A DNA stretch of 64,000 nucleotides from Yuukianura sp. NJ FZ-2021 (Eukaryota): assembly GCA_046563655.1 (NCBI GenBank), contig CM102283.1, positions 2,852,001 through 2,916,000 of the forward strand, in the 5' to 3' direction. Positions within the stretch are counted from its first letter, which is position 1; every line of letters begins with the position of its first letter. The position numbers and the translations under genes were made by a program. Below are positions 32,449-54,000 of the stretch, piece after piece. Under the pieces are notes generated by a model. That model was given only the letters and a program-made list of their open reading frames with translations. It searched no databases and was not told where the DNA came from.

Positions 32449-33452
32449 ATGAAGATTTTCTTGAGCGTAAGTGAAGGAGGGAAACTTTGAATTTTTGAAA
32501 TTTCAAAACTTTAATTTTGCTTTTGGAATTACAGGTAGCCGTACTTTGCTTCATTGGAGCCACCATTGCTCTGCCGTTGGATGTTAAGCCGTCAAAAGAC
32601 AACAAGACTGACACCGCCGCGGTCAAGGTCACCAGAGCCGTTGAACTCATCAAACCACCAACCAAAGACAACAAGACTGAAAACGCCACCGTTGCCGAAC
32701 CAGATACCGTCAAAGTCGTAGTTCGAGCTGTCGACATGACTGCCAAACCGGTAAAGGACAACAAGACTGAAAACGGCACCGTGGCTGCCAAAACCGTTCG
32801 AGCTGCTGAGCTGATCGCTGCCAAGGACAACAAGACCGGAAACGCCACTGTTACACCCAAAGTTGCCCGAGCAGTTGAAATCATGGTTGCCAAGGACAAC
32901 AAGACTGGAAACGCCACAGTCACCGTTGCTAAGGTTGCCCGAGCAGCTGAAATCATAGTTGCTAAGGACAACAAGACTGGAAACGCCACTGTTACACCCA
33001 AGGTTGCCCGAGCAGCTGAGCTGGTTGCCGCCAAGGACAACAAGACCGGAAACGCCACTGTTACGCCCAAGGTTGCCCGAGCAGCTGAAATCATGGTTGC
33101 CAAGGACAACAAGACTGAGAACGCCACCCTTCCAGCTGCTGTAGCCACAACTAAGGTTCGCCGTGCCGTTCCAGATGTGAAACAAACCTTGCCGAAACCA
33201 AACGCCACTGAAACCGTGAAACCCAACGGAACGGAAACCGATTCGATTGAAACTCTTGCCGCCAAATTGACCCGTGCCCTGGCCGAAGAAGCTGCCAAAC
33301 TGAACGGAACTGCTGTCAACGGTACTGAGTCTGCCGAAGAGCGAGATGCCCGATTTCTGCTTGGATTCGGCTGGCCCTACTATGGAGGATACCCATACGG
33401 GGGATACCGATACCGGTATGGGTGGGGATGGGGATGGCCATACTACGGTTAA
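32449..33452 (+). CDS. Secreted repetitive protein, putative polyprotein precursor. Exons 32449-32466, 32535-33452
   Basis: Signal peptide MKIFLS|VAVLCFIGATIA; eight KDNKT-containing repeats (core 23 aa/69 bp); C-terminal FLLGFGWPYYGGYPYGGYRYRYGWGWGWPYYG; strong codon bias; TATA upstream; AATAAA near 33620. Confidence 0.85.
32799..33128 (+). repeat. Coding tandem repeat, ~69-bp unit (AAELIAAKDNKTGNATVTPKVAR)
   Basis: Near-identical gccaaggacaacaagac(c/t)ggaaacgccac units. Confidence 0.9.
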
Positions 33453-34005: not shown

Positions 34006-34977
34006 ATGGTGGAAAAGGAAAGTACTTCACAACTGAAGAATTTACTGGGCGGACTGGGCGGAATGTATCCCTCGTACTCCATGGATGACCCCTCCATGAA
34101 TGTCTCAGGTCAGTATGTCAGTAATTAGGTAGTCAACTGAATGTAAGATGACATGAGTGATGCAATACCTTCTACGGTGTGATTCATAGGTCTAATAAGA
34201 AGACATTGTTTATGTACGTAATGTGTGACTGATCCGTGATTGGTTTGGTTTTATATTGCAGTCAACAGTAGCAGAGTGGGCCATCAGCTGTCACCTTACC
34301 TCAGCGTAGACCCATACTTAGCCTCTGAACCAGAATTTATCCTTCCGGAAGGGGCGGGGAGACAACGAGGCCGATTTGAATATGCCTTCGGAAGTATCGG
34401 TGGATCAGTTCTCGTTGGAGCCGGAATCGGAAGTATATCGGGCCTTTACAAAGGATGGAGAGACACTCAGGGACAAATCGGCAAAGTTCGACGTACTCAG
34501 TAAGCTTTTGACTTTCTGGAACATTGCGGTGCTCATAGTCTTCGTCAGATGAGCTTAATTTTAATTATTCATGTTTCAATTAGGTTACTAAATTATGTTG
34601 GAAAGCACGGTGCTTCAACGGCGAATTCACTTGGCGTAATGGCCCTCATGTACTCTGGTTTCGGAGTACTGCTCAGTTACGTCAGAGGATCAGATGACGA
34701 ATACAACACACTAGCCTCAGCAACCGCTACTGGCTTATTGTATAAATCATCCGGTAAGGCTTCATACCCAAGTCATTGTCCTCTTGAACCTTCTGAATTC
34801 AGTTCATGAATAACTTATTTTTGTCAATTAGCTGGACTGAAACGATGTGGAATTGCTGGTGGAGTAGGATTTTCCCTAGCCTCAATGTATATCCTTTGGT
34901 CCAAGGGCTCTCATGACCGTTCAATTGCTGACTACGTAGGATCCTCCAGAACCTCCGGTCGTCACTCGCACTACTAA
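34006..34977 (+). CDS. TIMM23: Mitochondrial import inner membrane translocase subunit Tim23. Exons 34006-34108, 34262-34499, 34584-34753, 34832-34977
   Basis: SPYLSVDP...EFILPEGAGRQRGRFEYAFGSIGG...RRTQLLNYVGKHGASTANSLGVMALMYSGFGV...RGSDDEYNTLASATATGLLYKSSAGLKRC. Confidence 0.95.
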
Positions 34978-35742
34978 ATTCTCCACTCCCATTCAGTTTC
35001 AACTTATCCTTCCACAAGCTTCTGTCACGGGCAGTCATCAACAACGGCATGTCCACGGTTTTACCAATAGTCATTCTCTTGTTGCTCTTGTCCTCTTAAA
35101 ATTCTATCGACGAATGACGATGAAAGGCCGAATTTCAAATTACGAACGAAACGGAGATTTTACGAGTTTCGGAAACACATTGTGAGCAGTGTTAAAGGTT
35201 GGACAAAACGTTTACTCTTCGTTTACAATTCATTACAACAGCGCATTCGTCTTTGTAGTAATCAAACCAAAGTCAAATAAACAAATCTCCTAAAAATAAT
35301 CGATTACTCATCGATAATTAATGGTATTATACAATGAAAACGTTTTTATTCTACACAATTTCACAACAAGGTCGACAAACTTAAAATATTTTAAATTTTG
35401 ACCCGCCTTGCTACATTAAGTTCAAAGTTCGCGCCAAATCCCCATTCCTAACCCTCCCAAAAAATTCGAGTTTAAAACTTTTTGACTTAAAAATTGAAAT
35501 AATTTCAACTTTTTTTTTTGATTTTTCATTACAAAGGGATTTATCAGTAATCTAAAAATACGATTTTTGCCTAAAAATCGCGGGAGATTCGATTTCTACC
35601 CTGTTCTCGACTTTTTCATCTTTAACAAACCATGAAACCTTTTTAACATTCCAGTTCAAAAAATCGATTTTTATCCACATTTTTTGCTGCTGATTTTTTC
35701 TTCGATTTTTTCGTCTTTTTTCAAATGTTTTCCTGCGTTTTT

Positions 35743-38700
35743 TTACTTTAGACTATGCCACTCTGATGCAATGGTTCTAGGAGCTCGAATCATTTTTTCC
35801 CAATGAGCTTTCGTTACCTGATTTCTAACACTGTAGCCAAAGGCTACTTTGCCTACCACGTGATCCTTTGACCTCGACGCAGTATCAGTACTAGATGCTG
35901 ATGCTGATGCTGGCGACTGCCGAGTCGGGGAAGGTGACGGTGGTTCGGCCGATCCACGACGACTGTTTCCGGCCGAACTGCTTTCGAATACTCCCGAACT
36001 GCTGCGACTACACCGATTCATGTTGTCTCCATAGTGAAAGAGGGCGTCGTCAATGGAATGTCTTTGATGATGAATGTGATGAGACTCGAACATTTCCGGA
36101 GGTCGGAGATGATGTTCCGGAGTGGAATGTCGCTTGGCCGAAGTGTGGAGCATTGACGGGGGAGACGGGGACTGGTCACCCCCGCCGAGAATCGTGCCTC
36201 CGCCGCTCTGAATTTTGTCCGTGAGGCATACCATTACGAGGAGAACCGTTTGAATTAATTCGGACGGTGGCATGTCAAAGACAAGAGTTTCATTGAAGAT
36301 GGGCTGATCTGCGCATGTGCCGAGACGCTGATACGACGTTTTCTTCCGTTTTATTACTTTTCCGGTGTCTGCTCTCAAGAGGAAGACGCGAACGTAACAA
36401 ATGCCTAAAAGTTTAGGAAAAATCAAGTTTTTAGAGTTTTTGAAATTAAGGATTTCTAAATTTCAAATTTGAATTCAAAACAGGCTGAAAACAAAATGTC
36501 AAATACAGAGGAGATGATGTTTAGGCGATGCTACTTCGAAGTCAGACGTAGTTGGCTTCATTTTCGGGATTTTAGATAGTAAAAGCGAACATACGGAGAA
36601 AGTTTCATAATTTTTTTTTTGCTTTTGGTATGACGCAAACCATGTTTTCATTAACTTTGACCTTTGACCTTGCCACAGTAACTTTAGTAATACAATGAGA
36701 GTACAAATTTTCTTCAAAAATGCGAAAAGGGTCTAAAATTTTAGACACATTTTTAATTTTTTGCACCTTTTTGAATTTAAAACTAAACTGCGTTGTTATC
36801 GTTGTTTACTGTTACATTTTCTGCGTTGAGTGATGTTGAGGTCACGAGGTCACTTGAAAGTCATAAAAAATATGTGTCAAATGACATAGTTCGTTTGTAC
36901 TTAACTTTTTAGTTGACCTCTTGACCTGTGACAGACTACGCCTTCTTAAGATAGTTTCTGACCACAACCTCTTCATTCATTTACGAAATATGAATGTCCA
37001 TGCAGTGAATACTTCGCATTTATTTTCAGTTTTCGCAACATTGCAATTTTGTAGTCTTAATTACTGTTTCTCAACAGGAGTAATTTTATTGCAAACTGCG
37101 ACGTTTGCAAATTTTTGTTTTTCGACCCAGATTTTCTTCCGTTCTAAGAAATTCTGGAAGGACGAAGATTATAGGCTAAAATTCAAAAAAAAAACTAATC
37201 CTTTTTTTTTATGTTTTTGAAGCGTGTGACATTCCATGAAATTTTAAGATTTCCAAGAAATGGCCTTCTTTGTAACTTTTTCATTTTACGAGTAATTTTT
37301 TACAGAGTTCAGGTCAATACGTGACCTTCAGGCTCAGGCACGCCCTGCCAAGATTTCAGATTTTGAATTTATGATTTTTTGAAACCTTGGTTCATTTTTT
37401 TTCCGAAGGTGAAAAGAATTGGGTTAATCTGCTCTTTTTAGGATAATTTTTTCATTGGATGCGTTCCAGTACTCATGAGGTCCTCAGCATTTGAATTATT
37501 ATTTTATACATTTATTTAATTCCTTTTATTATATTCTTGCCACCGACGCTGCTAATTACTTTACTGTTCCATTATGCTGAAAACTGCACTTTGCAAAATG
37601 AAAATCCAGGTTAATTCTGCTTGGAGCCAAAAGTATCCAGGATCAAAAGGTTTAGACTTTCTTTGAAGTTGAACTCTGACCTCTGCTAGTCCCTGCTTAA
37701 GTTAAGGGGAACTGGATCAAGTGAATTTGTGGAAGGCGTTACACAAAACTAAAAAGTTACGTGTTGGAAGTCTGCTGCTGTTACAGCGTTTGGGATAAGT
37801 TGAAAAAACAGATGCGGGAAATTACAAAATTCTTTAATCAATCAAGTTGCTCCACATTCTCTCAGGAATAAATGCATTTTATTCTCTGGAACTGGAAATC
37901 ACATTACACCAACGTATTTTGTCTCATTCATTTCAGTTTTAGCATGAAAAAAGAAAAACTTACTTTCTTTTACGAGTGCGTAGAGCAGGTCAAAGGTCAA
38001 ACATAAAAAGAGTTCAGAGCAAACAAAAACTTAAGGTGTGATGTTTGCTTTTAGATTTACAATCGGTTCCAGAATACCAAAATTAAATTTTTACAACCTA
38101 AAGCCCCGTTCACACCGAAGTAGTAAAGTTGTTAATAAATTTGCAGGTTTTGCTTTGCTTTAAGTAACAATATTGTGAACTCAATGGTCTGGTTTTTCAA
38201 AATTTTGAAATTTTTAGTAAAAATAATAATTTTTCAAAACTTACTTTGTTTTGTTATGGTTCCATAACTGAAGTAGGGATTCATATTTGTCACTTTCATG
38301 ACGTTGACTGACATTCTCTCTGCCGTTGGCAGGTAGCACAGTCCCAGAAGTAGCTCACCGCGTTTCTGAAATTCAAAAACAAGTTCAAAATTTGAATCAA
38401 TGTTCAAAAATACAAATTTTTTGGTCAATTTTCATTAGAACTAAAGTTGACACAAGCGCTTCGCAAATTTGGTAAACAACAAAATCCGCTTTACGTTTTG
38501 GAAACTCGAACCAAATCAAATTGTGCGATTTTTAGGAATTAGGTTCATGTTAAGTTAAAATCTGGCTTTAAGTTTTACGTTTCAGTTATGTTTAGTCTAA
38601 ATTTAAACTAGGCTTAGAATAAAGTTGTGGAAGAAAGTTTATAATTAAGTAGGTAGCTGTATGTAACGACGCAGAAAGTTCAGAGCTTAGCTTTGGTCCC

Positions 38701-41700
38701 ATTTGGGAAAATTGAGTTCAATTTTAAGTTTATTACTTTCATTTCTCCTCATAAAAGGAAAAGAAAGTTTAAGCTCAGAGTGGGAAAGTTTAAGATTAAA
38801 ATAAATTGGACTTTTCTTAGAAAAAAAAAGTTTAAAGAACTCTTTTTTTTAAATCTGCCTCCCAAAAGACTTCGTTTGAACAAGACTACTAAAAAGCACC
38901 GTCTTTGAACACGACTTCACTTTTTCAAGACTTACAAAATCTCTTCCTCACAGAGAAAAAACTTTTTCCCTCGCTCAAATTTCAAATTGTCCTACCGTTA
39001 GCTTTTTCAATTTTCCCGCTTCATTTCCAACCGCCTGCTGCTACGACTCTTTCCGTGGTTTAGTTTTGATTTGACTTTTTTCATGATTCATAAATCTCTC
39101 CTGATGTCTATTTTTCAGTTTATGGTCAATAAAATTTGAAAAATGAGTTTTCGGATTGTCCGCCATTTCTATTTGCTCCAGTTTTTCGCGCTAAACTAGC
39201 CCTTAAGTATCGCTTGCTTTGTGTGAACAATCTTTAAGCAAGTGTTGCTTCATGACCTTGTAGCTTTTGCTCTTTTTGAAATTTTGTTTCCTGCTCGGAT
39301 CGATTTAGAACAAGGAAATGTCATTTTTTGCTGTTCAGGGCCACTTAAAGTCGCGCAGAAAGCGCGGGTAGAAAGAGTTGCACAATTCAAATACAAATTG
39401 GGGTAAAATGAGACGGTTGAAGAAAAGTGAAGAAACGGGTTTCAAGGATTTTTCCTTTCAAGTACATCTAGACAAAAGCTTAGAAGTTATAATGGCGGAA
39501 GCGATGTTTCGAAATTTCGAAGGAAAAGTGGAAATTTGTTTTTCAAATTGAAAACTTTTTAAATTGCTTACGATAACTGGTTCTTTGAGAGAGCAACTGA
39601 GGATGAGTTTGTGGTTGGTGAAATCACGGAAGTCGTCGAACGTGAGTGTCGTCGAACCCAATTCCGTTGGATTTCCGAACCGATCCGAATCGAATCCGGT
39701 AAAACGAATCTTGTAGTCCTGAAGAAAGTTAAAAGATTTTCAAAAAGAAAGTTGATTTCAAGAAAAATTCTGAAAAAGTTGTGAAAATAACAAACCCGTG
39801 GACGAAAAGAGATCAGATGCCAAATTAAAACTTTCTCGGAAAAGGCAGACGAAAATTGTCCTTGGGAAACTTTTACATTTTGAGAAAAAATATGTTTGGA
39901 ACTTTTTTGGGATATTGGATTACACCATTATGAAATGATTTCATAAAAATCAAACCAAAAATAAAACTTTTTGTGGTTTTCAAAATCACACAAAACTATT
40001 CAATTCCAGACGTGGAAAGTTTAAAACTAGGACACGGAAATTTTGAAACTACCGCTACATCTACTGCCGCTTAACCTTGAGCTTGTTTCCTCTTACCAAA
40101 GTTAATTAAATTGTGAGGTTCCTGTGTTTGCTTTTAGTTTTCATGTTTTGGTTATAGGTTCTGCTTAGCCTAACGTTAGATTAGTGTTAGCCTAACAAAA
40201 ATCTAACAAACTCAATTGCCGGAAATTACTTTTTTCCCTCAAAGTTTTGGTTTTTATCAAGACCGAAATCACAACAAAAGGTTTTTACCACTCAATTTAC
40301 CTTTTCTGTTTTTTCTTCGAATGGAAACCGAATTTCTTTTCTGAAAACATTTCTTCATTTTCGAAAATCTATTTTTATTTCTAATATAAAATTAGTTCAA
40401 TTCTGTTTCCAATTTTTGTGTAATTTAATTTTCTACATCCTCCATGCAAATGATTGCGTCACTGGGTCAAAGGTCACAGATTGAAAAAAAATTGCTTATC
40501 ACTTGCATTGTCTAACTTTCATAAATTATTCATCCGCTGCAATTGTTAAAAAATGATGTCACTAAATGAGTCTGCTAGCAACAAAACCTTAACTTAACCT
40601 AAATTTTTACAATGATAAGTTTTTGTTCAGTTTTGATTTTTTGGAATAAACTATCACTGCATCATTTTTTCTAAAATTAGACAAATATCTGGTACTAGTC
40701 ATTTTTTTTTTTATAACTTTTTCGAAATCCTTGCCGATACTTTGATTTTTTTTCCTTGGAAAAAAAATGTGACATTTTTGGAAAACTTAATTTGACCTTT
40801 GACTAAAATTTGTTGACTGTTGGTTTACCTTTAAGTTGGCCTTTGAGAGTTGAGCCAGAAACTTTTCTGAGAAGTCGCAAATGTCGTTGGCCTTTTTAAT
40901 TGTTTTGGTGACAAATCGATATCGCATCATCTCTGTTTTGTAGCCTCCGCTGCTTCCCAGACTTGTTTTGCGACTACTCAACTTCCGAGGCTCAATTTCC
41001 AGTGTAAAGAAAGGATCCGTAGGTTGATTCAAATATTCCCGCCATGGTAAGTTCCGCGCTTCCTGCAAAGTGTTGTAAACAGAGTCATTTAGAACCAAGC
41101 AACAGAAACAAGCTACGGAAACATCAAGCTACTTAACATGAAACCCAAGCGACATAGCCTCAAAATAACCGAAAATCCAGTAAACCTAATCTGGAAACAC
41201 CATCAAACACAAAATTTTCTTTGTGTTCAAAATTCGTTCAAAATTCAAAGTTTTCTGTTTCGACCAATCAGAAATCGGCTTTTCGCTCATGAAGCTAATA
41301 CAGGACGTTGGGAAATGCAAACTTTTGAAACAAAAGTCGCTAAACTTCGAAATTTCTAAAATTTCAAACCAGAGTCAAAGTTATGCTGAGTGACAAGCAA
41401 AAGAGTCAACGTGTTTTTCAAAATGAAACCAATTTTTTTTAAAAGAAATATTTTTGTTACATTTTTATTTTGTCAATTCATTTGCTAAGCGAAGGCTAGA
41501 AATTAAAGTATAAATACTTAGTTAAGTAGTTGCTTAAAAATTAACGTTTTAATTTACTAATACGAGGGTATACAATTTTAAAAAGTTAAAAAACACAACT
41601 TTTTTTTTAAAGTTTTCATTATTTTGGAAATTTAGCCGAATGGCGGTGTTAAGAATTCTTGAAGCTCAGGAAAGTGTGAGTTCATCAATTTGGAAATGAG

Positions 41701-44700
41701 TAAATTCGGGTTAAAAATTTCCGGAACTTGAAGCAGTTTTCGACCAGCAGCGTAGACGAAGTCGTACGAAAGTACTAATGGCATTGTAGCTACCGAAACC
41801 AGTTTCATAATTTTGTATTGTCTTAGTTTTGCACGTAAAGTGCTCATGTCGTCGTCAATAGCTGCTCGAAACATTTTTTGAACTGATTCCGGTACTTTCT
41901 CTTCCGACTCCCGAATGGTTTCACAATTCCGGCAATTCTGGTTGGTCCAATCTTGATCTTCTTCTGGTTCCGATGATTCGTCTTCTGTATCTGTACCGGT
42001 TTGGCTTGAGTTCGGCTCAGCGTCTTCAGAATTTGTACCGGTTTGTTCAGTAGATCCCGCAAATCTGCAGGGTTTGCATCTAACGAGGTCACGTTCAACT
42101 AAAAACCGTCGTCCATCGGCGTAACCTTGTTGGAAAATTTCGGCTAGATCGTCCGGTCCGGGCGGAATGAAAGAATGTGTGAGGCGCGAAATATTTTTGG
42201 CGGAAATTTCAAACGAAGTGTTTTTGACTTGTAGCATCCAAGATGACAATGGACCATCGCGTGGACAAATGTCAGACTGACCACAAAACGGACTCACGGT
42301 GACCGTGTTTTCGTCATGGATGATCAAATTGTTTGAAAAACCGCCATCGACGTGTCGTTCTCCGCGAAACAGGGGCGGAATGAGACCGACGAAAAACGGA
42401 ATTGTGATTGAGCATATCAGAGCATCGATGAGGTCTTCGCGGGATTCAAAATTTGAAACGATCATGTTTTTCATGTCACGCACTCTGGTGAGTGAAATAT
42501 GGACTTTTCCGGATGCCAATATATGTCCATTGTGTGGAACGTTTTTCTCAAGATGGTAACGCACGATTCCTGCGACGTCGCTGGACGGACTCAGAGCACC
42601 AATGACCTTGTCTCGTGTAGTAACACAAGTATGGATCCACATTGACGCTGCATCGCTGATTTCGGTGTCCATGATTGTCAGTGAAGTTGCAATTGCACCG
42701 GCGCTGGCACCAGAAACTTTAGTGAGTAAATGTGGAACGTATTTTTTCAGACATGCCATCACTCCAAAATGGTACATGCCCAGAAATCCACATCCGGCAA
42801 AAGAAAAGTTCAATTTTGAATTGTCTTGTTTCGAAATTACAGTCATTTTTAAGTTTTTTTGAAAAATAAATGAGGCTGTAACTTCCTCTGGTTCCAAAAA
42901 CTTGGTACAAAAAGTTTGTCTTTTTCACACAACTTCTAACTTTTCACTTTTGTTTAACAACTTTTGTTCAGATTTTGAAGCTTTCCGACTTTGAGTTTAA
43001 GAACACACTAACGCTGTTTGATGTAACTGAACTTTTTGCAAAAATTTGAAAAAACGCTGACACTTTTCAAAAACTTTTTCACTTTTGGCGATAAACTTGT
43101 TCCGTGGTTGACTAAAACTCCAGAATCATTTTGCGTTGCGATTTTATGTGAAAATGTTTTTTCATGAATCATCCAGCTTAGAGTGTTTCGTTCTCGTTTT
43201 TTCTCGCAATTTCTTTTTTGCAACTTTTTTTTTTGCACAAATTGCTTGCCAAATTCGCACTACTTTTTACACATCTAAGCTGATTTGGTCTATAACCAAC
43301 GTGTCATTCAGGAAACTTGCTCTTATCACTTTTCAATTCAAGTTGAACTTTTGTGTCATCAGCTATTTAGTATTGACCGTGTCCAAAAACACTCAACACA
43401 GTTTTTATATTAGGTTAGGTTGTTTATACATTCAGTGAAAGGTGACCTCGTGACCTCCCTTTCTTGCAAAAATGACTTATGATAACTTTTTTTTCCCAAA
43501 AAACTCGTGACTTTTTAATAGTTTTTTTGTTTTCAGTGCAGTTTAGAGCACGTGGTCCAATCGAAGATTTTAAAACAAAACTGAAATTGAGCTGAAAAGT
43601 GAAAAAATGAGGTTTTAAATACAAAACACCGTGGAAGTTCCAATAAAAACTTGACCTTCCCACGTTGTCATTGTCATGCCAGATTATCTAACTATTGATA
43701 CAGAAATAGCAAAAATCCCACCAGTTGCACGACAAGTGTTATTCAACGTATTGTCATCCTCAGTTAACAGTTTTGGAAATTTCGAAAAATAGAATTTCAA
43801 TTCAAAAGTTTTATCGAACCAGACTAGTTTTCCAAAACTCAGACCCCTTCAAAATCCCAATTACTAATGTCAATCATAGCAATTACACAACACGTGTGTT
43901 AATGAATTGCTGTCGTCAGTACTTAGCTCTGGAAATTTCGAAAAAAAAAATCAAAATTTTATCTTCTAACCACTTCCAAAAAGTTTCCAAAATTGATCTT
44001 AGTTTTAGTATAAATTTTAATAGGTAGAAGTACATAACGTGATGAGATGATTGCATTTGTACCGAGAGTGAGAAAGATGTGAGATTTTTGGGCAGTTTTT
44101 GAAAAATTACGGTACTTTTTGCACCTATCGGACCATCCTTCTTGGAGGACCAATCACAACAAAGCTCGTGACATGTGAGAACAATGGGTGTCTATTTTAA
44201 AATGCTTATGGCTTAAGTACTATGAAATTTTGGATGGGATTTTGAGGCGTAAATTCCCAAGTATTTGTTATCATAAGCAAAAAAAAATTCTGTAAAAATT
44301 GCCACTTAAATTCTTGATTTTTATAAAACTTTTTTTTTCTACAAAGCCACACCCCTGTTTAGCAAGTTACGCTTGTGAAAAAGTGGGTCAAACGCAGTTA
44401 GTGATAAGTTTTGTAGTTTTTTGTTTGAGTTTTGCACTTATCATATTAGTTTTCAAGATCACCTTCAGAAAGTTGGCACGTTTTGGAGTTTCAAGATAAA
44501 GTGAGAAAAACAAAAAATAGTTACGCATTTCAAAGAAAAAATTTAACTTTTAAAACGTAAAATTAAAAGAATAAAATACCAAAAACTTGAAGAAAAAACA
44601 AAACTTTCCACAAAGAAAATTCTAGCAAACGGAATTTTTTTTTTAGTTTTTTATTTTTATTTCAAAAGATGAACCATTAAAGCTAGGACAAACAAATTAA

Positions 44701-47700
44701 ATTTGGTAATACTAGTAACAGCGGTAGATAAGTACAAAAAGCATGTTGTTTTTCGAAAATCGTTTTTTTCGAAAAGTGTTTTTTTTTGAAAATGTGTTTC
44801 TGAAATTTAGGCCAGTGGAATTAGGGCCTCCTGGAACGGAACCAAACTGATTAGCTTTGAAATGGCCACATTTGGATCCAGAAGTTGTGGAACTTTCGCC
44901 AACTTTTGTCCAGTTGCATAAAGTATGTCGTAGTAGAGAGCCAAGGGCATTGTAGCCACGGAAACCAATTTCATGATTTTGTATTGACGCAATTTGGCAC
45001 GCAACCTTTGAGTGTCGTCGTCAATGGCGTCACGAAACGTTTTTTGAACGGATTCCGGTATCACGACATTCGGAAAGTACCGTACCGTTTCACAGTCGCG
45101 ACAATTCCGAACCCAATCCTGGTCTGCTTCTGCGTCCGACATTTCTTCTTTGACATTTTCTCCACCAATCAGCTCTCTCCGGGCAATTTCGTCTCGACCA
45201 ATCACAGCATCGCTGGGGATTTTGAATCCACCAATCACAGGGTCGCTGGAGGTTTTGAATCCACCAATCAGGGCCGTCGGTGCCGGAAGACATACGTCAC
45301 AACCTACAAAACCCTGTTCGACCAACCACCTTAACGCATCTTGGTATCCGTTCCGGAAAAAACCGGACAGTGTTTCGGCTCGTGCCGGAAACAAGGAATG
45401 AGCAATTCTCGAAATGTTTTTGGTAGAAAGTTCGATCGGTGTGTTTTTGAAGTCCATGATCCACGGTGACCGTGGACCGTCGCGTGGACAGATACCGTCA
45501 CCGCCGCAGTACGGACTCACGGTCACGGTGTGTTCGTCATGTATAATAATGTTGTTTGTAAATCCACCGTCGAAGTACCGTTCGCCGCGAAACCGCGGCG
45601 GAATGAGGCCGACAAAAAACGGAATCGTCACGGCACAGATCAGAGCGTCGATAAGTTCTGCACGGGACTTAAATTCTGAAATGACGACGTTTTGCATGTC
45701 ACGCACTCTGGTGAGTGAGATATGCACTTTTCCAGTGACAAGGAGATGGGCATCGGGTGGAACGCAGCGTTCAAGGTTGCAACGTACGATTCCTGCGACG
45801 TCACTGGATGGACTGAAAGCACCAATCACCTTGTCCCGTGTTATGACACAACCTTGTATCCACATTGACGCAACATCGGCAATATCTATGTCGGCAACTG
45901 AGCAGCACATTGCAAGAGCTCCTGCGCTTGCGCCGGAAACTTTTGAGAGCAATTCAGGAACGTGGCGTTTGAGACAAGCGATGACCCCGAAATGGTACAT
46001 TCCGAGAAACCCACAACCGGAAAACGAAAAATTTATTTTTGATTTGTCATATTTTGATACCGCCATTTTCAAAAAAAGTCGTCAAACTAACGATGTTTGA
46101 CCTTTAGAAAAAGTTTTGAAGTTGGACGCTTTAAGTTTTTGAAGTTTTGACGGACGGCGTTTGACGTTTCAATTTTTTTGTGTTTGAAGTTTTGAAGAGA
46201 AGTCTATGACGTTACTTCTACTTGGTTTTGCAAAAATCCAAAAACTTGTCTTTTAAACTTAGAAACTTTTCGGGAAAAAATGAAGGTTTATGTAACTTTC
46301 CAAAAACAAAAGTTCAAAACCTAAAATCTGATTTTGAAACTTTTTGTTGAAACTCTTCCCATAAAGTTTTTTGCTAAAGGTAAAATGATGAAGAGAGCTC
46401 AATAATTTTCACGAAAAAAGATAGTTTTGATGTAAGCGAACTCTTGAACTTTTTTTTCTCAAAAAGTGAAATCCGTTGCATGTTTGTTTTGGTTGAATAA
46501 TTCCAGGAAGCAACGAAACTAAAAAGCTGACTGAGCTTTTAAAATCGCTTGAGCAGTGTTTTTGTAATCGTACACGCTTCCTTGTGATCAATGAATCACC
46601 CTAACTCCTACTCCCTGCCCCCTTGTATATTTTCAGCGCTAAATCGCTGGAAGTCTCAATTTCAAAGATCAAAATTTGTCCACGATCAATACATCATTGT
46701 AAGTTACAATTCGTGTCATCCAGAGACGCAATTGATCATGAATAAAATACTTCAAAATTTACATAGTAAGAGTTATGGTTAGGTATGGTATGGTAAGTTA
46801 CCTAACCTATAAAACAATTGAAGTTTATCTTTTTCAGTGTGTCAATCCATATAAAATTTTTAGAATGGTCACACGACATACTTGGAGTCCAAACTTTACC
46901 ATTAGTGTTACTTAGCAACAAAATTCAGAATAAAAATTTCAAAAGTCAAGACAAAAAAAAGAATAAAGTGATACACTTAGGTCACACCAAAAAAATTTCA
47001 CTCCAGAAATTTTTGGTGTTTAAACTTAAGTTTTGAAATTCAAAAATGAAGCAGTCCAATTTACAACAAAGTTCAAGTCTTTTGTAAACCATAAATGATC
47101 ATGATTCATAAGTTGATCTTTAGTATGAACTTCGGCACTAACTAACCTAGATTAGGTTACCCTAGCTTCAGCTATTTAGTTAATTATAATTATATATAAT
47201 TATAATATAAAATTAATAGCTAAATTATCGTATGTTGGGCTGTGAGCTAAAGTTAAAAGTACAGTAAAAATCCAAAATGTAGGCAATCAGCAAATATTTT
47301 GAGTTTTTAGTCAAAAACACCCAAATATTTATTCAATGCGACCTAAATTTTGCTAAATCTAAATTTTCTTTATGAAAGCTTTTTGTACTTGGAAAGAATT
47401 TGACGTAATTAGGCTACTGCGCTTAAAAACTGATTAGTTTATTCTATAACTAATTAATTGGGTTAAGTTAATTAGTTTTAGCGTTGGAAGTTAATTAGTT
47501 GTAGTGGAGCACTATAGAAGACCGACGACTCGAGGGAAATTCAATTGGACTTTGACACGTTCTGTCTCCGAAATTGACGACGTGCTCATTCGTTGTCAAG
47601 GGAACCTCTACGACATGGTATCTCGTTCCGCTCGTCACGTCCACAAAAGCGTCCCCTGGCGACACATTCATGTACTGCTCATTCCCTGGATACTCCTCTA

Positions 47701-50700
47701 CAATATCAATGTACTCTTGGTTCAATACTGGCAGCACATCTACCATTAACTGCTGCTGCTCTGGGACTCGCTCAACGTCAAACGTCAAATTTTCGTCACG
47801 CGTCTTCCAAAATTTCGATTTGAAATATTCCGATCCAAGTCCGGATTCGTAGATTGTGGACGGTAATTTCCGTACCGGTTCCAGATTCGGTATTGATGCA
47901 ACATCTAGTAGTTTTTGACCGGTGGCTAACACAAGGTCAGCTGACACTGCCCAGGGCAGGGTGACGAATCTCAAAAATTTGACGCCGCGAAACGTGGATA
48001 ACCAATTGAACAGTCCGCGCCGATTCCATTCAATGTCGTCTTCCAGCAACCGTGACACTGTAGGCGGAAGTGTATCTTCCAGGGCCATTTTTTTCCGTGC
48101 ATGACACTCATGGCATGACTCTGCTTCCAAAATTAGTTCAAAATGTTCTGTCATGTCAAACTCACTAAAAACTGGAGCGGTTTCTGGACGATACTGCGGT
48201 GTCTGTAGGTGCTGAGGTACACAATCCTGACAGCCCATCAAATCTCTCCGGGCTAAAAATCTTAGAGCGTCGTCGAATCCTTGTTGGCAAATTTCGTAAA
48301 ACAAGGTCGGGTTTGGTGGGAAAAAGGTTCCGTACAACCGTGTAAAATTTTTGGCGGACAATTCAAAACTTGTATTTGAAATATTTAGAATGGCTGATCC
48401 CAATTGGCCATCTCTTGGACAAATATCACTCTCTCCAGCATATGGCGTTACACTGACCGTGTTTTCGTCTCTGACTGGACAATTGTCTGAGAATCCTCCG
48501 TCCATGTACCGAACTCCGCGGAAACTCGGAGGAATCAATCCAGAAAAAAATGGAATGAAAGTGGCACAGAGAATGGCTTGTTTCACTTCATCGCGTGATT
48601 TGAACTCTGACACGGTAATGTTATGTCTATCGTGGACTCTGGTGAGAGAAATGTGAAGTTTTCCGGTACATCGGATATGGACGTCTTCTGGCAGTATTTT
48701 TTCTAAAACGTCGCCTAGCAACTTGCCCAAATTGAAACTGGGACTAAATGGACCGAGAGTTTTTGATCTTGCGGTGTTGGCCACTTTGAGTAAAACTTCA
48801 AGACTTGCGTCAAATGGAATGTCGGCGACCAATAGTAGGGCTGCTATTGCTCCAGCACTTGCTCCAGAAGCTTTGTCCAGGACCAAGTGATGTCCATATT
48901 TTTTCAAACAAGTTGTTACTCCAACGTAGTAAATTCCGAGGAATCCGCACCCGGCGAAGGAAAAGTTATACTTCTTGGTTCCCTTCATTTTTGATTCGTC
49001 GGAAACGTTCGGTTTTACCCGGATTTTGTAGGTTCACATTAGCACTACTCCACTTTGGTTAGACTAAACACTGACGACAATTGTCACCAATCAAAAACGT
49101 TTTCAAAACGTTTAGCACGTTTTTTGTTTAAACTATACCAAACGTTTGAGAAATTGTAGAAAACGTTTTTCAAACGTTCAGAAAGACACAAAATCGTCGG
49201 AAGACACAAAAAATGTGGGGAACAAAACGCGGGGAAAACGTTTTGAAAAAAACGTTTCGTAAACGTTTAAGGCTTTGAATCACAGAACGGCACTTTTTAT
49301 GTCTCTAATCTTAGTCTTCTGAACGTTTTCAACAGATTTCACCGAGTTCTGGACTGTTTTGAGAAAAATTGAATTTCAAAATTGTTTTTCTGAAATTTTC
49401 TGTGCTTCAAAAGTGAAATGAGCGACTACTCCACAACAACTGAAGTGGGTTTCATACTCCTATGTTCAATTAAGGCATTTAAAAAGTATGATCAGCACAA
49501 TAACTACGATCAGCAAAATACGTATGATCAGTAGCCATAGCCTATGTAGCAAATGTAGCTTCCATGACAGATAAGAAGTACAGTGCGATTTGATATGAAA
49601 AATTATGACGAAGTTGATGTCAGGAAGCATATGGCATGTGCAATTGAAGAATTTAGTAGTAATCAGTGACCTCTTCCATTGCCACTCTTATCTCCAAATT
49701 TCAGTAATTCGATACCAACTTTGTTGCAGTTTGAGCAAATAATTAAACATTCGGCACCACTTAACTCCTTTGACGTACATCGGAAATGCCGTTTGAAAAA
49801 AAAATCAAAATTTTCAAATAAAAAAAATCAACTACCATAGTTTCCATTTTGCCAATCCATCACCTAACTAACGTTGATTAGAAAACATAATTAACAATGA
49901 CCCAAATTTAACCTAACAGTTACGCTGATGCTGAGAAAAATGATAAAAAACACACATTTTTTGGAATACGACATTTTGTCGTTGTTTTGTCGAAAGTGAT
50001 CAAAGTTTTTGTTGACGTTTTTAGAGATGATGAGTCAAAATAAATAACTTCGTAAATAACTTTTTGATTTTGACAAAAGTGTCAACAACCTTGTGAGTCA
50101 CGATAATTGTCAATTACAGAAATTGCTCAGTTACAACATTGAAAATAACAAAAAAGTAGCGTGAAATTGGTCATTGCTTACCAGAAAGTCGATATTGATG
50201 GTTCCAGTCGTTTGATCATACTTAAGTCCAAAGGTAAAGAATGGCTGGGGATGGTGAGCCTGGAGGTCATTCAACTCAGCCTCAATAACTCCGCCGCCGG
50301 ATCGATTCCCACTGTCCTCAACTTTTTCTTGTTCTTCCTGCAGAGTAGTTGCTACGGGATGCTGTGTACCATTGTTGTTGTTTGGAGACACGGTTGCTCT
50401 GTGCTTATGGGGACTGGGGGTGGGGGTGTGGATGAGGTGGGAGGTTGAGTCGGGGGAGTTGGGGGTTCCGGTTAAGGGGGAAGCGGTGGCCGAACTGTGC
50501 CGAGGGGAGTTCGGGAGCTCATAGACAGAAGCCGAACTGTTTTCGGACATTGACGAATAAGTGGAGTCGCGTTTAACGGGAGATGAGCTACTGAAAATAC
50601 GGGCAATCTCTTCTTCAGGGCTTCCACGATGAATAATATCTAAAATATGGAAAAAAATGTAATTTTTGATTAATTTAAAAAAATTATGATTGAAATTTTA

Positions 50701-51015
50701 GGATTTTTGGAAAACTTACTTTCTCTAAAAACTCCAACCGATGAGGGATAAATATCCGGCGGGTAGCGAATACAAATAATGTCGTCCATTCCATTTTTCT
50801 TTTTAGCTGAAAGACAGAAAACAAAAATTTTAGAAACAAGTTTTTTTTTTAACTCTTCAAAATTTTGAAAACTTACAATCTTTCCAAATGAGCTGATGAA
50901 TCCAACACCGTTTCCAAATGATGCAGATCACAATTAGGGCAGTGAGTAGAACCGTGCCAAAAGCTACTGACGCAAGCAAAACTTGCTCAGCATACGTCAA
51001 TTCTCCCAAGTTCAT
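35743..51015 (-). CDS. Synaptotagmin-like protein (N-terminal TM, linker, C2A, C2B). Exons 51015-50877, 50806-50720, 50639-50182, 41062-40829, 39718-39572, 38365-38245, 36404-35743
   Basis: TM VLLASVAFGTVLLTALIVICIIW; C2A FGLKYDQTTGTINIDFL|EARNLP...DPFF...FDSDRFG; C2B RGELLLGLCYLPTAERMSVNVMK...YVRVFL...KRKKT...PIFNETLVF...VVGKV...HWEKMIRAPRTIASEWHSL; all junctions GT-AG and phase-consistent. Confidence 0.88.
41632..42846 (-). CDS. Patatin-like phospholipase (PNPLA2/ATGL/brummer-like) copy A; intronless, nested in the synaptotagmin intron
   Basis: Uninterrupted ORF from ATG 42846; SFAGCGFLG, GASAG, DGG, SPFCGQSDICPRD; CxxC...CxxC after the patatin domain. Confidence 0.93.
   Translation of the reverse strand: MTVISKQDNSKLNFSFAGCGFLGMYHFGVMACLKKYVPHLLTKVSGASAGAIATSLTIMDTEISDAASMWIHTCVTTRDKVIGALSPSSDVAGIVRYHLEKNVPHNGHILASGKVHISLTRVRDMKNMIVSNFESREDLIDALICSITIPFFVGLIPPLFRGERHVDGGFSNNLIIHDENTVTVSPFCGQSDICPRDGPLSSWMLQVKNTSFEISAKNISRLTHSFIPPGPDDLAEIFQQGYADGRRFLVERDLVRCKPCRFAGSTEQTGTNSEDAEPNSSQTGTDTEDESSEPEEDQDWTNQNCRNCETIRESEEKVPESVQKMFRAAIDDDMSTLRAKLRQYKIMKLVSVATMPLVLSYDFVYAAGRKLLQVPEIFNPNLLISKLMNSHFPELQEFLTPPFG
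44807..46066 (-). CDS. Patatin-like phospholipase (PNPLA2/brummer-like) copy B; intronless, nested
   Basis: Uninterrupted ORF from ATG 46066; SFSGCGFLG, GASAG, DGG, ICPRD; shares LRAKLRQYKIMKLVSVATMPL with copy A. Confidence 0.93.
   Translation of the reverse strand: MAVSKYDKSKINFSFSGCGFLGMYHFGVIACLKRHVPELLSKVSGASAGALAMCCSVADIDIADVASMWIQGCVITRDKVIGAFSPSSDVAGIVRCNLERCVPPDAHLLVTGKVHISLTRVRDMQNVVISEFKSRAELIDALICAVTIPFFVGLIPPRFRGERYFDGGFTNNIIIHDEHTVTVSPYCGGDGICPRDGPRSPWIMDFKNTPIELSTKNISRIAHSLFPARAETLSGFFRNGYQDALRWLVEQGFVGCDVCLPAPTALIGGFKTSSDPVIGGFKIPSDAVIGRDEIARRELIGGENVKEEMSDAEADQDWVRNCRDCETVRYFPNVVIPESVQKTFRDAIDDDTQRLRAKLRQYKIMKLVSVATMPLALYYDILYATGQKLAKVPQLLDPNVAISKLISLVPFQEALIPLA
47495..48988 (-). 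CDS. Patatin-like phospholipase (PNPLA2/brummer-like) copy C; intronless, nested, the most canonical copy
   Basis: 497-aa ORF; SFAGCGFLGIY, GASAG, GPFSPSFN, GVRYMDGGFSDN, PYAGESDICPRD, ICQQGFDDALRFL. Confidence 0.94.
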   Translation of the reverse strand: MKGTKKYNFSFAGCGFLGIYYVGVTTCLKKYGHHLVLDKASGASAGAIAALLLVADIPFDASLEVLLKVANTARSKTLGPFSPSFNLGKLLGDVLEKILPEDVHIRCTGKLHISLTRVHDRHNITVSEFKSRDEVKQAILCATFIPFFSGLIPPSFRGVRYMDGGFSDNCPVRDENTVSVTPYAGESDICPRDGQLGSAILNISNTSFELSAKNFTRLYGTFFPPNPTLFYEICQQGFDDALRFLARRDLMGCQDCVPQHLQTPQYRPETAPVFSEFDMTEHFELILEAESCHECHARKKMALEDTLPPTVSRLLEDDIEWNRRGLFNWLSTFRGVKFLRFVTLPWAVSADLVLATGQKLLDVASIPNLEPVRKLPSTIYESGLGSEYFKSKFWKTRDENLTFDVERVPEQQQLMVDVLPVLNQEYIDIVEEYPGNEQYMNVSPGDAFVDVTSGTRYHVVEVPLTTNEHVVNFGDRTCQSPIEFPSSRRSSIVLHYN

Positions 51016-54000
51016 TTTGAATTAAAATTTCAAATTAGTTGAAACCCGGCAAAGTTCAAATCACAAACAAACAAGTTCAAATTATACAAAGTGACCTTCA
51101 CATTGACTTCAGTTCGAAGACAAAAGTCAAAGGTCAAACTGTTCACCATGCACGGCGGAAGGTCAAACTGCACCTGAAAACAGAAAAAGAAAAAGTTACT
51201 AAAATTTGAACTTTTACTATCACTCAAAAATTTTATGATCCAAATTATTTACATGTATCAAATATTTTTTTTATTTTCTTTCTTTTCAAATCCATTTTTT
51301 TCAAATTGTATTTTGCTAATTTAGCAGTGATTTCAGTCTTTCTCTTTTTTACACTCTTTTAGGTTAATTTAATTTGTCTTTCCTTACTTCTAGACTGCTA
51401 ATTGAATTTCAGGCGAAAGAAACGTACAAAAAGAAAACTTTCTTTTAATTTCTACATTTTTTTTCAACGCATGCGCAAGTTGTCGATGATACTACTAAAG
51501 TTTGAGCTAAGAAAGTTCCTTTTGTAACAATTTAGGCTCGTGCAGATGCAGTGGAGAAAATTAGACAATTGCCAGTGCATTATAAACTGAAACCCAATGA
51601 TTAACGAAAATTACACGAATACAACCCGAATACCCGCCTCTTTTTCAAATCCTTCAACTGTTGAACTTTGACCTCAATCAATAACTTAATCAACAGCGAA
51701 ACATGTACTTTGATACTTCTGTAACTATGCAATTCTGAAACTAAAAAAGAACTCAATTGAATTCAATGTTTTCTAAGAAAAACTAAAAATAAAAGCCGTA
51801 CAAAAACAACTTTCATAATTTCTTTTTCTTTAGTATTTCATAATTTTTTTTTTGCATAAAAATTCACTGCGCAGCTTCCGGCAGGCAGGTTGCTGCGAAA
51901 AAAGTTTCAAAAATTATAGTTACTACTCCCGCTTCTGACAAAAAAATATGAGTGTTTCTATGTTTGTATGGCTTGCAGATTTCAAAAAATTGTAGAGTTG
52001 TGTTGCTATGCTACGGGAAATATGAAGCTGGGTGATAAGTGATAGGTAGCACATATCACGCTTCAATCTGGTGTTACAGAGGTCAAAGGTCACGTTACAA
52101 AGATGATCACCCTAACAGGAAACAACAAACTTTTATTATCGAGGTCACGTCGAGGTCATCTGCAGTTAAATATACAACGTTAGGACAGGTTGAAAACAAG
52201 GTTTAACAAACGTGACAAACGTGCAGAAACTTTTGTTTTTTCCAAATTCCGGATAGTGCTAAAAGGTAATTAAATTTTATCAGGAATTTGGACAGATTTG
52301 ACGCCGTCTCTTGATGATTGGATTTGGAACTTGCACTTTGTGAACCGGAGGCAGTTGACCTCTCCGAACTTTGTTTCCTCTGCATCTAGATTAATACTAT
52401 ACAATAGATTTGATTTGAAAAGTGGCGGTCATGTCATAAAAGCTTTTCCTAAAGGTCATTGACTTCAAAAAAGGTTCGCTCAAAGTTCCCACTCTTTTCG
52501 TAAAAAAACTTCGGACTAAAATAAATCTCCGAAGATTTGTTTACAGAAACTTGAACTTTTTAGACCAAAAAACAGAAAACAGGAAACGAAAAACAGGAGA
52601 AATGACATGAACGTTCCACCGTGCAGTAACCTGCACTTCGCAGGCTGGAATTTAAAAAAAAGTTGAAATTCGAAACTGTCAAAACTAAATTTTTTTTGAC
52701 ATTTTTTTCACAAAAAGTTGCATGTTTGTGCAAAAGCTGTCACTGACACAACTGAGTGTATTTATGAATTTATGGACCCATTTGTGTTCTGGAAGGCAGT
52801 TAATTTAAAATGTCTCGAAGATTTTGACAGTTAAGATAATTAATGAGTATAATTAATCAAAAACCGACGTCAAATATGTTCAAAATTTTGAAATTTTGAA
52901 ATTCCCACAACTGGAATTGTCCATGGTGTGGGCGATTGCATAAATTTCAACAACTGACGCTTTCAATAATGCTCAACATGCTGCAAATCTCATGCTCTCA
53001 GCCTTCAAAACTTTCAAAAAATGTACGAGTTTATTTGAAAAAGTTTAGCAAATTTAGAAAAAACTTGTAATTTTTTTAGACAAACTTTTCAGAAACAAAA
53101 TTAGAATCGTGGGAGTGCAAGGTGAGCACATGGATTAACTTTTTTTTAATTTAAAAAAAAACTAATATTTTGTAAAAAATGTATGGAAAGTGTGGGAGTG
53201 AGAGAGGTTATTTTGAAGGATGAGATTTTTGTTTGAACATGTTCAAACAAAAATTTTAAAAAGGAACTTGCCCTACAACCGAACAACTCAAATGAAATTT
53301 CCCACTCTCAGGGTTCATTTTGAGATTGAAATTCAGAATCACGTCTCCAAATGTATGATTATTGATTATCCAAAAACAACAACTTTTTTTTTCTTCAAAC
53401 ATTTCAGTTTTCTGCACTTACTTTTTCAATTCCTTTCTCTTGCTTCACTTTCCTTCTGCATTTTTCTGTTCATTGTTTTGATTTTTAAAAAATTTTGTTT
53501 TTAAAACAAAAATTTAAAGAACGTGACATTTCCGGGACACTTTTAAATTTCCCGCTCCGGGAATTAGGGAGGCTGTCACTTCAATCGTTTCTGGAATGCT
53601 TTTGATTTAATTCAAGCAGAAGAAAGTAGGCAGAGCTCTTGAAAAAAAAAGAAAAAAAAATCTTTTATGTGAATTGGAACTGGGAGAAAGCGGAGCTTTT
53701 TAATTTTTTTTTTAGTTCAAAAGCTTTTTGGCACAAATGTGTGGCTCAGCAGGATGCTTGGACAAGATTCACAGTGTGACACCTCCATCACTTACATTCA
53801 TTGTATGGCTTAACCGCATGTCACCACAATTTGTTCCTCACGGACATTAAACACGACCGTATTAAGTCTACATCACACTTTCTGAAAGGAATTTTAAAAA
53901 AGATTTTTTTTTGTAAGCATCCATTTTCTGAAATTTTCAAGTTGAAACGCTTTCTTTTTTTGAGAACAACAACGACCTTGGCAAATGTTTAGCAATTGAG

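What the first reader, a model, noticed from the sequence alone, without database searches (positions are those of the whole stretch)
41063..50181. Three intronless PNPLA2/brummer-like lipase genes nested, same-strand, in one intron that splits a synaptotagmin C2A domain
Seen: host exon 50639-50182 ends ...TINIDFL|GTAAG and the next exon (41062) starts CAG|EARNLP, joining into a contiguous C2A beta-strand. The 9.1-kb intron between them holds three complete single-exon lipase ORFs, each with GxGxxG, GASAG and DGG intact and on the host strand. Every other gene recognised here has introns. Established: ATGL/brummer genes are normally multi-exon, and nested genes are more often antisense to their host. 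Inference: a brummer mRNA retroposed into this intron and then duplicated in tandem (A and B share an identical C-terminal block; C is closest to canonical), giving a lineage-specific lipase expansion. Host transcription would have to read through three internal promoters and poly(A) sites, implying mutually exclusive or interference-based regulation.
Basis: partly seen in the sequence, partly recalled or inferred. Interest (0 to 1): 0.75.

Follow-up and report, generated by a model that had tools for sequence, protein, structure and literature searches.

The report
Brummer lipase retrogenes in synaptotagmin intron
Three intact, intron-free copies of the fat-mobilising enzyme brummer/ATGL sit head to tail inside one intron of a springtail synaptotagmin-like gene; they are old copies of a spliced messenger RNA kept by selection, a clear example of a known kind of gene nesting.

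Summary
A 9,119-nt GT-AG intron (50181-41063) splits a synaptotagmin-like gene whose Allacma and Orchesella orthologues read straight across the junction. It holds three intact single-exon patatin ORFs on the host strand. The retrogene reading is well supported. A multi-exon brummer parent lies on contig C8; its six introns in the alignable region are absent from all copies, and each copy has only one of the parent's two mutually exclusive catalytic-Asp exon modules. A fourth copy lies 99 kb away. The family is old: dN/dS is 0.09-0.18, a second species has copy C behind the same host donor, and the C versus A/B/D split predates speciation. Expression, tissue and interference are untested. Same-strand nested genes are mostly intronless in Drosophila (71.5%), and nested paralogue clusters are known, so the architecture is ordinary. 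I found no report of this family in print. Verdict: new member of a known kind.

The parts
50877..51015 (-). Host synaptotagmin-like gene, first coding exon (ATG, transmembrane helix)
   Evidence: aligns with Allacma and Orchesella orthologues
50720..50806 (-). Host coding exon 2
50182..50639 (-). Host coding exon 3 (linker and start of C2A); its end and donor are conserved in another species (L017)
41063..50181 (-). Host intron, 9,119 nt, GT-AG, phase 0, holding three lipase genes
47495..48988 (-). Lipase C, 497 aa, intronless brummer/PNPLA2 retrogene, closest to the parent; orthologues P0001 (L017) and P0002
44807..46066 (-). Lipase B, 419 aa, intronless, A/B/D type, C-terminally shortened
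41632..42846 (-). Lipase A, 404 aa, intronless, A/B/D type; predicted model matches patatin folds
47438..47443 (-). AATAAA 52 nt after the stop of C (a second one 162 nt after)
   Evidence: candidate poly(A) signal, function not shown
44650..44661 (-). Two AATAAA 146 and 152 nt after the stop of B
   Evidence: candidate
41464..41469 (-). AATAAA 163 nt after the stop of A
   Evidence: candidate
40829..41062 (-). Host coding exon 4 (C2A)
39572..39718 (-). Host coding exon 5 (C2A end)
38245..38365 (-). Host coding exon 6 (C2B start), followed by a phase +1 intron that fits the synaptotagmin signature intron
35743..36404 (-). Host last coding exon (C2B, stop)

Best explanation
In an ancestor of one springtail lineage, a spliced brummer (ATGL/PNPLA2) mRNA carrying alternative exon module A was reverse-transcribed and inserted into an intron of a divergent synaptotagmin gene. 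It duplicated in tandem into a C type and an A/B/D type before the sampled species split. A/B/D then duplicated again, giving A and B in the intron and D 99 kb away. All four are under purifying selection and keep the oxyanion loop, catalytic Ser and Asp, a four-cysteine motif and the hydrophobic helix region; A, B and D have lost the parent's C-terminal tail. SHOWN: gene structures, parent, intron loss, single-module capture, constraint, conserved position of C. INFERRED: each copy is its own transcription unit with its own start and poly(A) site while the host splices over all three; the proteins are lipid-droplet neutral-lipid lipases or transacylases of a restricted tissue that mostly differs from the host's (male germ line is my best guess, about even odds, by analogy with Drosophila nested retrogenes only).
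For: Parent on C8 with introns at codons 58, 96, 136, 166, 199 and 294 in the alignable region (plus 401 and 433), none present in A, B, C or D. The parent has two 189-nt alternative modules, A (DGGFT) and B (DGCYS), also seen as Folsomia isoforms of equal length and in loci L023 and L028. All 4 copies in this genome and the 4 external orthologues have a single module with IPFF/DGGF; of the 6 placed in the 63-aa tree, none joins the B clade (support 96). NG86 dN/dS: A-B 0.18, A-D 0.16, B-D 0.18, C against its L017 orthologue 0.09; bootstrap pN/pS upper bounds 0.43-0.51 in 4 of 4 pairs. L017 has the host exon end and GT donor, then 773 nt, then an intronless C orthologue on the same strand. P0002 (C type) and P0123 (A/B/D type) both come from a contig of 5,631 nt, probably the same one. 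Single-origin clade UFBoot 98-99; monophyly of this genome's four copies is rejected (p-AU 1e-4). 5 of 5 host-strand AATAAA in the 5,150 non-coding nt of the intron lie 52-163 nt after a lipase stop.
Against: No transcript, junction read, tissue or enzyme data. Two independent retropositions are not rejected (p-AU 0.16 and 0.19 for 2 of 4 two-origin trees), and long branches may attract each other. The assignment to module A is weak for C alone (9 A-like against 9 B-like of 28 diagnostic sites), and A/B/D are unresolved in the 63-aa tree. AATAAA after the stops is not significant against composition-matched shuffles (P 0.06; only the absence elsewhere is, P 0.006), and host intron 6 carries 5 sense AATAAA. 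No TATA or DRE match lies near any ATG and no flank is shared among copies. No remnant of the parent's UTRs was found. L017 ends about 800 nt after the stop, so the downstream host exon was not seen there.
Confidence: 0.82

Rival explanations
1. Same origin, but the lipases borrow the host's promoter: the host's non-coding first exon, or exons 1-3, splice onto a site upstream of or inside a lipase ORF as an alternative last exon, possibly giving a membrane-anchored TM-lipase chimera.
For: Same strand; the host donor is phase 0; A has two weak in-frame AG sites 54 and 39 nt before its ATG; acceptor-like sites exist upstream of every copy. Unchecked earlier notes describe such sharing at other loci.
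Against: C and B have no in-frame AG in their open upstream frames. For C, B, A and the L017 orthologue, every acceptor with at least 10 of 14 pyrimidines runs into a stop within 1-55 codons. Strong acceptor-like sites upstream of C, B and A occur at 0.5-0.8 per kb, no more than in other host introns (0-1.6 per kb). D is intact and constrained outside the host.
Confidence: 0.1
2. Two independent retropositions from brummer (one giving C, one giving A/B/D) landed in or moved to the same intron.
For: C and A/B/D are only 38-43% identical, similar to A/B/D against the parent; 2 of 4 two-origin topologies are not rejected.
Against: The best tree joins them (UFBoot 99). 12 sites are shared by C-type and A/B/D-type orthologues against six agreeing springtail parents, though several of these also match outgroups. 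Two landings in one intron are unlikely a priori.
Confidence: 0.08
3. DNA-level duplication of the brummer gene followed by loss of every intron, or pseudogenes or an assembly artefact.
For: Intron gain or loss does occur in this family: the intron at codon 166 is in this genome's parent but not in module A of L023 or L028.
Against: It needs loss of five or six introns and of one whole alternative module. Frames of 404-497 codons stay open at dS of 1.6 or more, with dN/dS below 0.2. The copies are too divergent to be assembly duplicates, and the arrangement recurs in an independent assembly.
Confidence: 0.04

Closest known systems
Brummer / ATGL (PNPLA2) triacylglycerol lipases
   Same: Patatin domain, GCGFLG, GASAG and DGG; best named hits are springtail PNPLA2/brummer proteins. 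The region matching the minimal active ATGL domain (to Leu254; PMC3198459, abstract) is complete in all copies.
   Different: Intronless; multi-copy; A/B/D are about 40% identical to the parent, with changed helices after the catalytic Ser and no C-terminal tail; C has a divergent tail.
Same-strand nested genes of Drosophila (Assis 2016, PMC5174743; passages read)
   Same: [quoted passage not shown]
   Different: Here three paralogues of a core metabolic enzyme lie in a coding intron, and the arrangement is old enough to saturate synonymous sites.
TipE/Teh cluster nested in CG18675 and GMC oxidoreductase cluster nested in Flo-2 (PMC3240667; passages read)
   Same: A paralogue cluster held in one host intron over long times, including a retrogene (Teh3), with escapes from nesting.
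   Different: Those clusters are mostly not retrogenes and are insect-wide; this one is all intronless and found so far in unnamed springtail-like assemblies only.
Drosophila doppelganger von brummer (dob)
   Same: A second brummer-like lipase gene in one arthropod lineage; induced on starvation in males (PMC6994176, passages).
   Different: Independent origin: two divergent Drosophila paralogues (assumed dob-like, not confirmed) group with fly brummer, not with these copies. The intron structure and testis bias of dob were not checked.
Synaptotagmin family, nearest arthropod cluster 'synaptotagmin 20' (host)
   Same: N-terminal TM helix, two C2 domains, best solved matches Syt3, Syt7 and Syt1, phase +1 intron near the start of C2B.
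   Different: Most acidic calcium ligands appear missing by eye (positions recalled, not tested); the subfamily rests on an automatic Atlas name.

Membership tests
PNPLA2/brummer lipase | Patatin domain above the Pfam cut-off | tested here: met
   3 of 3 window copies
PNPLA2/brummer lipase | Oxyanion GxGxxG, GxSxG serine and DGx aspartate | tested here: met
   A, B, C have GASAG, D has GSSAG, all have DGG
PNPLA2/brummer lipase | Groups with springtail brummer in a tree | tested here: met
   support 99-100 against insects and crustaceans; other PNPLA subfamilies were not included
PNPLA2/brummer lipase | Triacylglycerol hydrolysis and lipid-droplet localisation | not testable with these tools
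   needs an assay. The basic targeting patch described for fly Brummer (PMC3669214, passages) could not be aligned reliably
Retrogene | Intron-bearing parent at another locus, with its introns missing from the copy | tested here: met
   6 of 6 introns in the alignable region absent; the 2 later introns not testable
Retrogene | Carries one spliced isoform only | tested here: met
   one of two mutually exclusive modules; which one is only moderately resolved
Retrogene | Poly(A) remnant, target-site duplication or parental UTR | tested here: inconclusive
   only coding matches to the parent locus, as expected at saturated synonymous sites; target-site duplications were not searched
Retrogene | Functional: constraint on the frame | tested here: met
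Retrogene | Transcribed | not testable with these tools
   no sequencing run was available to lay on the locus
Nested gene | Lies wholly inside an intron of a single host gene | tested here: met
   (by homology, not by RNA)
Nested gene | Own transcription unit, no exon shared with the host | tested here: inconclusive
   no conserved in-frame acceptor; sharing of a non-coding exon cannot be excluded
Synaptotagmin (host) | TM helix, tandem C2 domains and the signature phase +1 intron in C2B | tested here: met
   TM helix and strand position judged by eye
Synaptotagmin 20 subfamily (host) | Orthology to hexapod Syt20 | tested here: inconclusive
   feature score 0.95 and TM 0.48/0.66 for the Orchesella orthologue; no tree made

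The most novel reading that the evidence does not exclude
Retroposition froze one of brummer's two ancient, mutually exclusive catalytic-Asp exon modules into a free gene. Its A/B/D descendants, with rebuilt helices next to the catalytic Ser and no regulatory tail, became enzymes of a new specificity (for example acyl transfer for sperm or cuticle lipids) and may be expressed through the host synaptotagmin's promoter or as membrane-anchored chimeras. The locus would then be a natural experiment on what the two brummer modules do.
Probability: 0.15. Interest if true: 0.55.

Novelty: new member of a known kind. Interest (0 to 1): 0.33.

Why it matters
Brummer/ATGL is the rate-limiting lipase of fat mobilisation and is usually single or low copy (general knowledge). 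A four-member, selectively maintained retrogene family shows that this enzyme can be multiplied and specialised. The family also exposes a pair of mutually exclusive exon modules around the catalytic aspartate of pancrustacean brummer, for which my one search found no description. As gene architecture the locus is ordinary: it adds an old, cross-species example to the known class of same-strand, intronless nested genes.

Tried and rejected
RNA runs: no RNA holder was listed for 40800-50700, so no reads were laid. Further copies: none beyond A, B, C, D and the parent in two genome searches or in 138 kb around the locus. Host exons next to relatives: 1 of 16 metagenome loci (L017) matched the host; most of the others are multi-exon parent-type genes, and L018 and L019 are unbroken parent-type frames that look like transcripts. 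TM-lipase fusion: no conserved in-frame acceptor. Recent gene conversion between A and B: rejected, 12 of 63 nt differ in the identical block. Shared promoter or duplicated flanks: none by blastn or motif scan. Tandem repeats in the intron: only short ones, the best a 33-nt unit inside B. Pfam did not recognise host exons 3-6 on their own; only the last exon gave C2, below the cut-off. The structure model of A (mean pLDDT 75) confirmed a patatin fold but gave nothing on specificity or on the cysteines. Literature: 'brummer + retrogene' 1 irrelevant paper; 'Collembola + brummer' 7 irrelevant; 'PNPLA2/gene duplication/arthropod/intronless' 15 of 171 listed, none on this; 'brummer + mutually exclusive exon' 6 irrelevant; 'Collembola/retrogene/nested genes' 15 of 22 listed, none on this. 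Subscription papers are not covered and I opened no supplements. Earlier-findings look-ups by relatives and by lipase words gave nothing.
Full report
Verdict. The locus is an old, selectively maintained family of intronless brummer/ATGL genes nested in a synaptotagmin-like host. It is a new member of a known kind of arrangement. Nothing here shows how the genes are expressed or regulated.

Anatomy. Three minus-strand ORFs lie in the interval: C 48988-47495 (497 aa), B 46066-44807 (419 aa) and A 42846-41632 (404 aa). All three pass the Pfam Patatin cut-off and keep GCGFLG, GASAG and DGG. Seven minus-strand exons from 51015 to 35743 join into an open 615-aa frame with a hydrophobic N-terminal stretch and two C2 domains; 6 of 6 introns are GT-AG, and the third is the 9,119-nt, phase-0 intron. 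A search with the last exon among longer proteins gave 2 hits from 2,861 candidates, from Allacma fusca and Orchesella dallaii. Both align along the whole model and are contiguous across the junction. The Orchesella protein maps to this one locus, apart from a weak hit on C7. It matches solved Syt3, Syt7 and Syt1, and its nearest arthropod Atlas cluster is named synaptotagmin 20. The last intron is phase +1 near the start of C2B, which fits the family's signature intron (PMC2823689, passages). The organism is most likely a springtail: its brummer is 77-78% identical to springtail proteins and 57-62% to insect ones.

The parent. A genome search with C gave 12 matches: the three window copies, a fourth intronless copy, and eight exon-sized pieces on contig C8. 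The fourth copy, D (435 aa, C1:2793311-2794618), lies 99 kb from A, outside the host gene. The C8 pieces assemble into a 511-aa brummer with introns at codons 58, 96, 136, 166, 199, 294, 401 and 433. The first six fall in the alignable region, and none is present in A, B, C or D. Five of the six positions recur in another springtail-like locus, L023, so the introns are ancestral and the intronless state is derived.

One isoform was copied. The parent has two alternative modules of exactly 189 nt for codons 137-199, which carry the catalytic Asp: A (DGGFT, split by an intron) and B (DGCYS). Folsomia has two annotated isoforms of equal length that differ here, and the Allacma, Portunus and Ephemera models contain both modules in a row. 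Every copy has one module only, with IPFF and DGGF. None of the six placed in a 63-aa tree joins the springtail B clade (support 96); C groups weakly with module A (73) and A/B/D are unresolved. At 28 diagnostic sites B and D are 11:4 and 11:5 A-like, A is 9:6, C is 9:9, and its two orthologues are 12:5 and 10:6. A DNA duplicate would have carried both modules, so a spliced mRNA is the simplest template.

Age and constraint. NG86 gives dS 1.6-2.5 and dN/dS 0.16-0.18 among A, B and D, and 0.09 for C against its orthologue; C against A/B/D is saturated. Bootstrap pN/pS stays below 0.51 in 4 of 4 pairs tested. The 21-aa block shared by A and B differs at 12 of 63 nt. Among the best 120 of 1,221 hits to C, two unnamed proteins stood out, P0001 and P0002, at 59% and 56% over the full length. 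A metagenome scan returned 16 loci, of which 1 matched the host. That locus, L017, has the end of host exon 3 with its GT donor, 773 nt of intron, and an intronless C orthologue on the same strand. It ends about 800 nt after the stop, so the far side was not seen. A profile of A, B and D found one A/B/D-type protein, P0123, at the top of 150 listed hits, of which I fetched 7. A search with P0123 added P0284 among 51 hits. P0123 and P0002 both come from a contig of 5,631 nt; I infer from the equal length alone that they are neighbours. Whether P0284's 1,459-nt contig is genomic or a transcript is unknown. No named springtail protein of either type appeared or 81 or among the 7 looked up, which is weak evidence that Folsomia, Orchesella and Allacma lack the family.

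Trees. The copies and their orthologues form one clade (UFBoot 98-99) that groups with springtail brummer. Monophyly of this genome's four copies is rejected (p-AU 1e-4), so the C versus A/B/D split predates speciation. Two of four two-origin trees are rejected and two are not (p-AU 0.16, 0.19), and a position outside all sampled springtail parents is not rejected (0.54). Long branches weaken all of these results. The trees used 17-25 chosen sequences of the several hundred fetched.

How it probably works. Shown: intact catalytic motifs, a patatin-like predicted fold for A, four cysteines invariant in 47 of 47 aligned sequences, and loss of the parent's tail in A, B and D. Inferred: independent transcription units. 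All 5 host-strand AATAAA in the 5,150 non-coding nt of the intron lie 52-163 nt after a lipase stop, and D and the L017 copy have similar sites. Their presence is not significant against shuffles of these AT-rich stretches (P 0.06); their absence from the other 4.5 kb is (P 0.006; 8 on the opposite strand), but host intron 6 tolerates 5. No conserved in-frame acceptor links host exon 3 to a lipase; A has two weak candidates. Sharing of the host's non-coding first exon stays open. By analogy with Drosophila, where internal genes tend to be RNA-derived, tissue-specific and often testis-specific (PMC5174743, passages), I expect a tissue that differs from the host's, with male germ line at about even odds. 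This is analogy, not evidence.

Comparison with what is known. In D. melanogaster 71.3% of nested genes are antisense, but 71.5% of the same-strand ones are intronless. Paralogue clusters held in one intron are described for TipE/Teh, including a retrogene, and for GMC oxidoreductases (PMC3240667, passages). Flies have their own brummer paralogue, dob (PMC6994176, passages); two divergent fly paralogues group with fly brummer. The minimal active ATGL domain ends at Leu254 (PMC3198459, abstract only), and fly Brummer uses a C-terminal basic patch for droplet binding (PMC3669214, passages). Five searches found no report of this family or of brummer's alternative modules; subscription papers were not covered and I opened no supplements. 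Earlier unchecked notes list other nested genes in this genome, which fits nesting being common here.

Scores. Interest 0.33; new member of a known kind. The most novel reading left open, a changed enzyme specificity or use of the host promoter, has probability about 0.15 and would deserve about 0.55.

Noticed in passing
L013 6139-6422 and 6785-6973 (G000:C8): The brummer parent has two mutually exclusive 189-nt modules around the catalytic Asp (DGG versus DGC); both are also seen in Folsomia, Allacma, Portunus, Ephemera, L023 and L028. Module A here has an extra intron absent in L023 and L028. One literature search found no description.
   Followed up: partly
L014 5311-6618, minus strand (57 kb left of the window): Fourth intronless copy D, intact, between the 3' end of an SH2-domain adaptor-like gene (label recalled) and a retroelement; it has a short internal repeat and an acceptor-like site 3 nt before its ATG.
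   Followed up: yes
window 49000-49400: Ten copies of the palindrome AACGTT in 400 nt upstream of lipase C, out of 46 in the whole window; none upstream of A, B, D or the L017 orthologue. Unexplained.
   Followed up: partly
lipase A residues 257, 260, 305, 308: A CxxC...CxxC motif invariant in 47 of 47 aligned arthropod brummer-like proteins flanks a hypervariable loop; possibly a metal site. It is absent from one divergent Drosophila paralogue, and P0123 lacks the second pair.
   Followed up: partly
G000:C1:2796038-2799219, minus strand (L014/L015): Two long frames (666 and 435 codons) of a non-LTR retroelement with reverse-transcriptase-like sequence, 1.4 kb upstream of copy D (classification recalled, not tested).
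   Followed up: no
L036/L037 (G000:C1:2846429-2851825, +) and window about 34300-35100: A 1,798-codon retrotransposon-like polyprotein frame just left of the window, and a short decayed fragment of similar look inside it (labels recalled, not tested).
   Followed up: no
window 32499-33452, +: Secreted-looking protein with many repeats carrying N-x-T sequons and a Gly/Tyr-rich end, possibly cuticular.
   Followed up: no
window about 57420-51173, minus strand: A probable 6.2-kb intron in the host's 5' UTR (donor-like site near 57420, acceptor at 51173), judged by eye.
   Followed up: no
L018 3-1328 and 2626-3219: A spliced-looking, Orchesella-like brummer module-B frame on one contig with a convergent zinc-finger-like frame (label recalled).
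   Followed up: no
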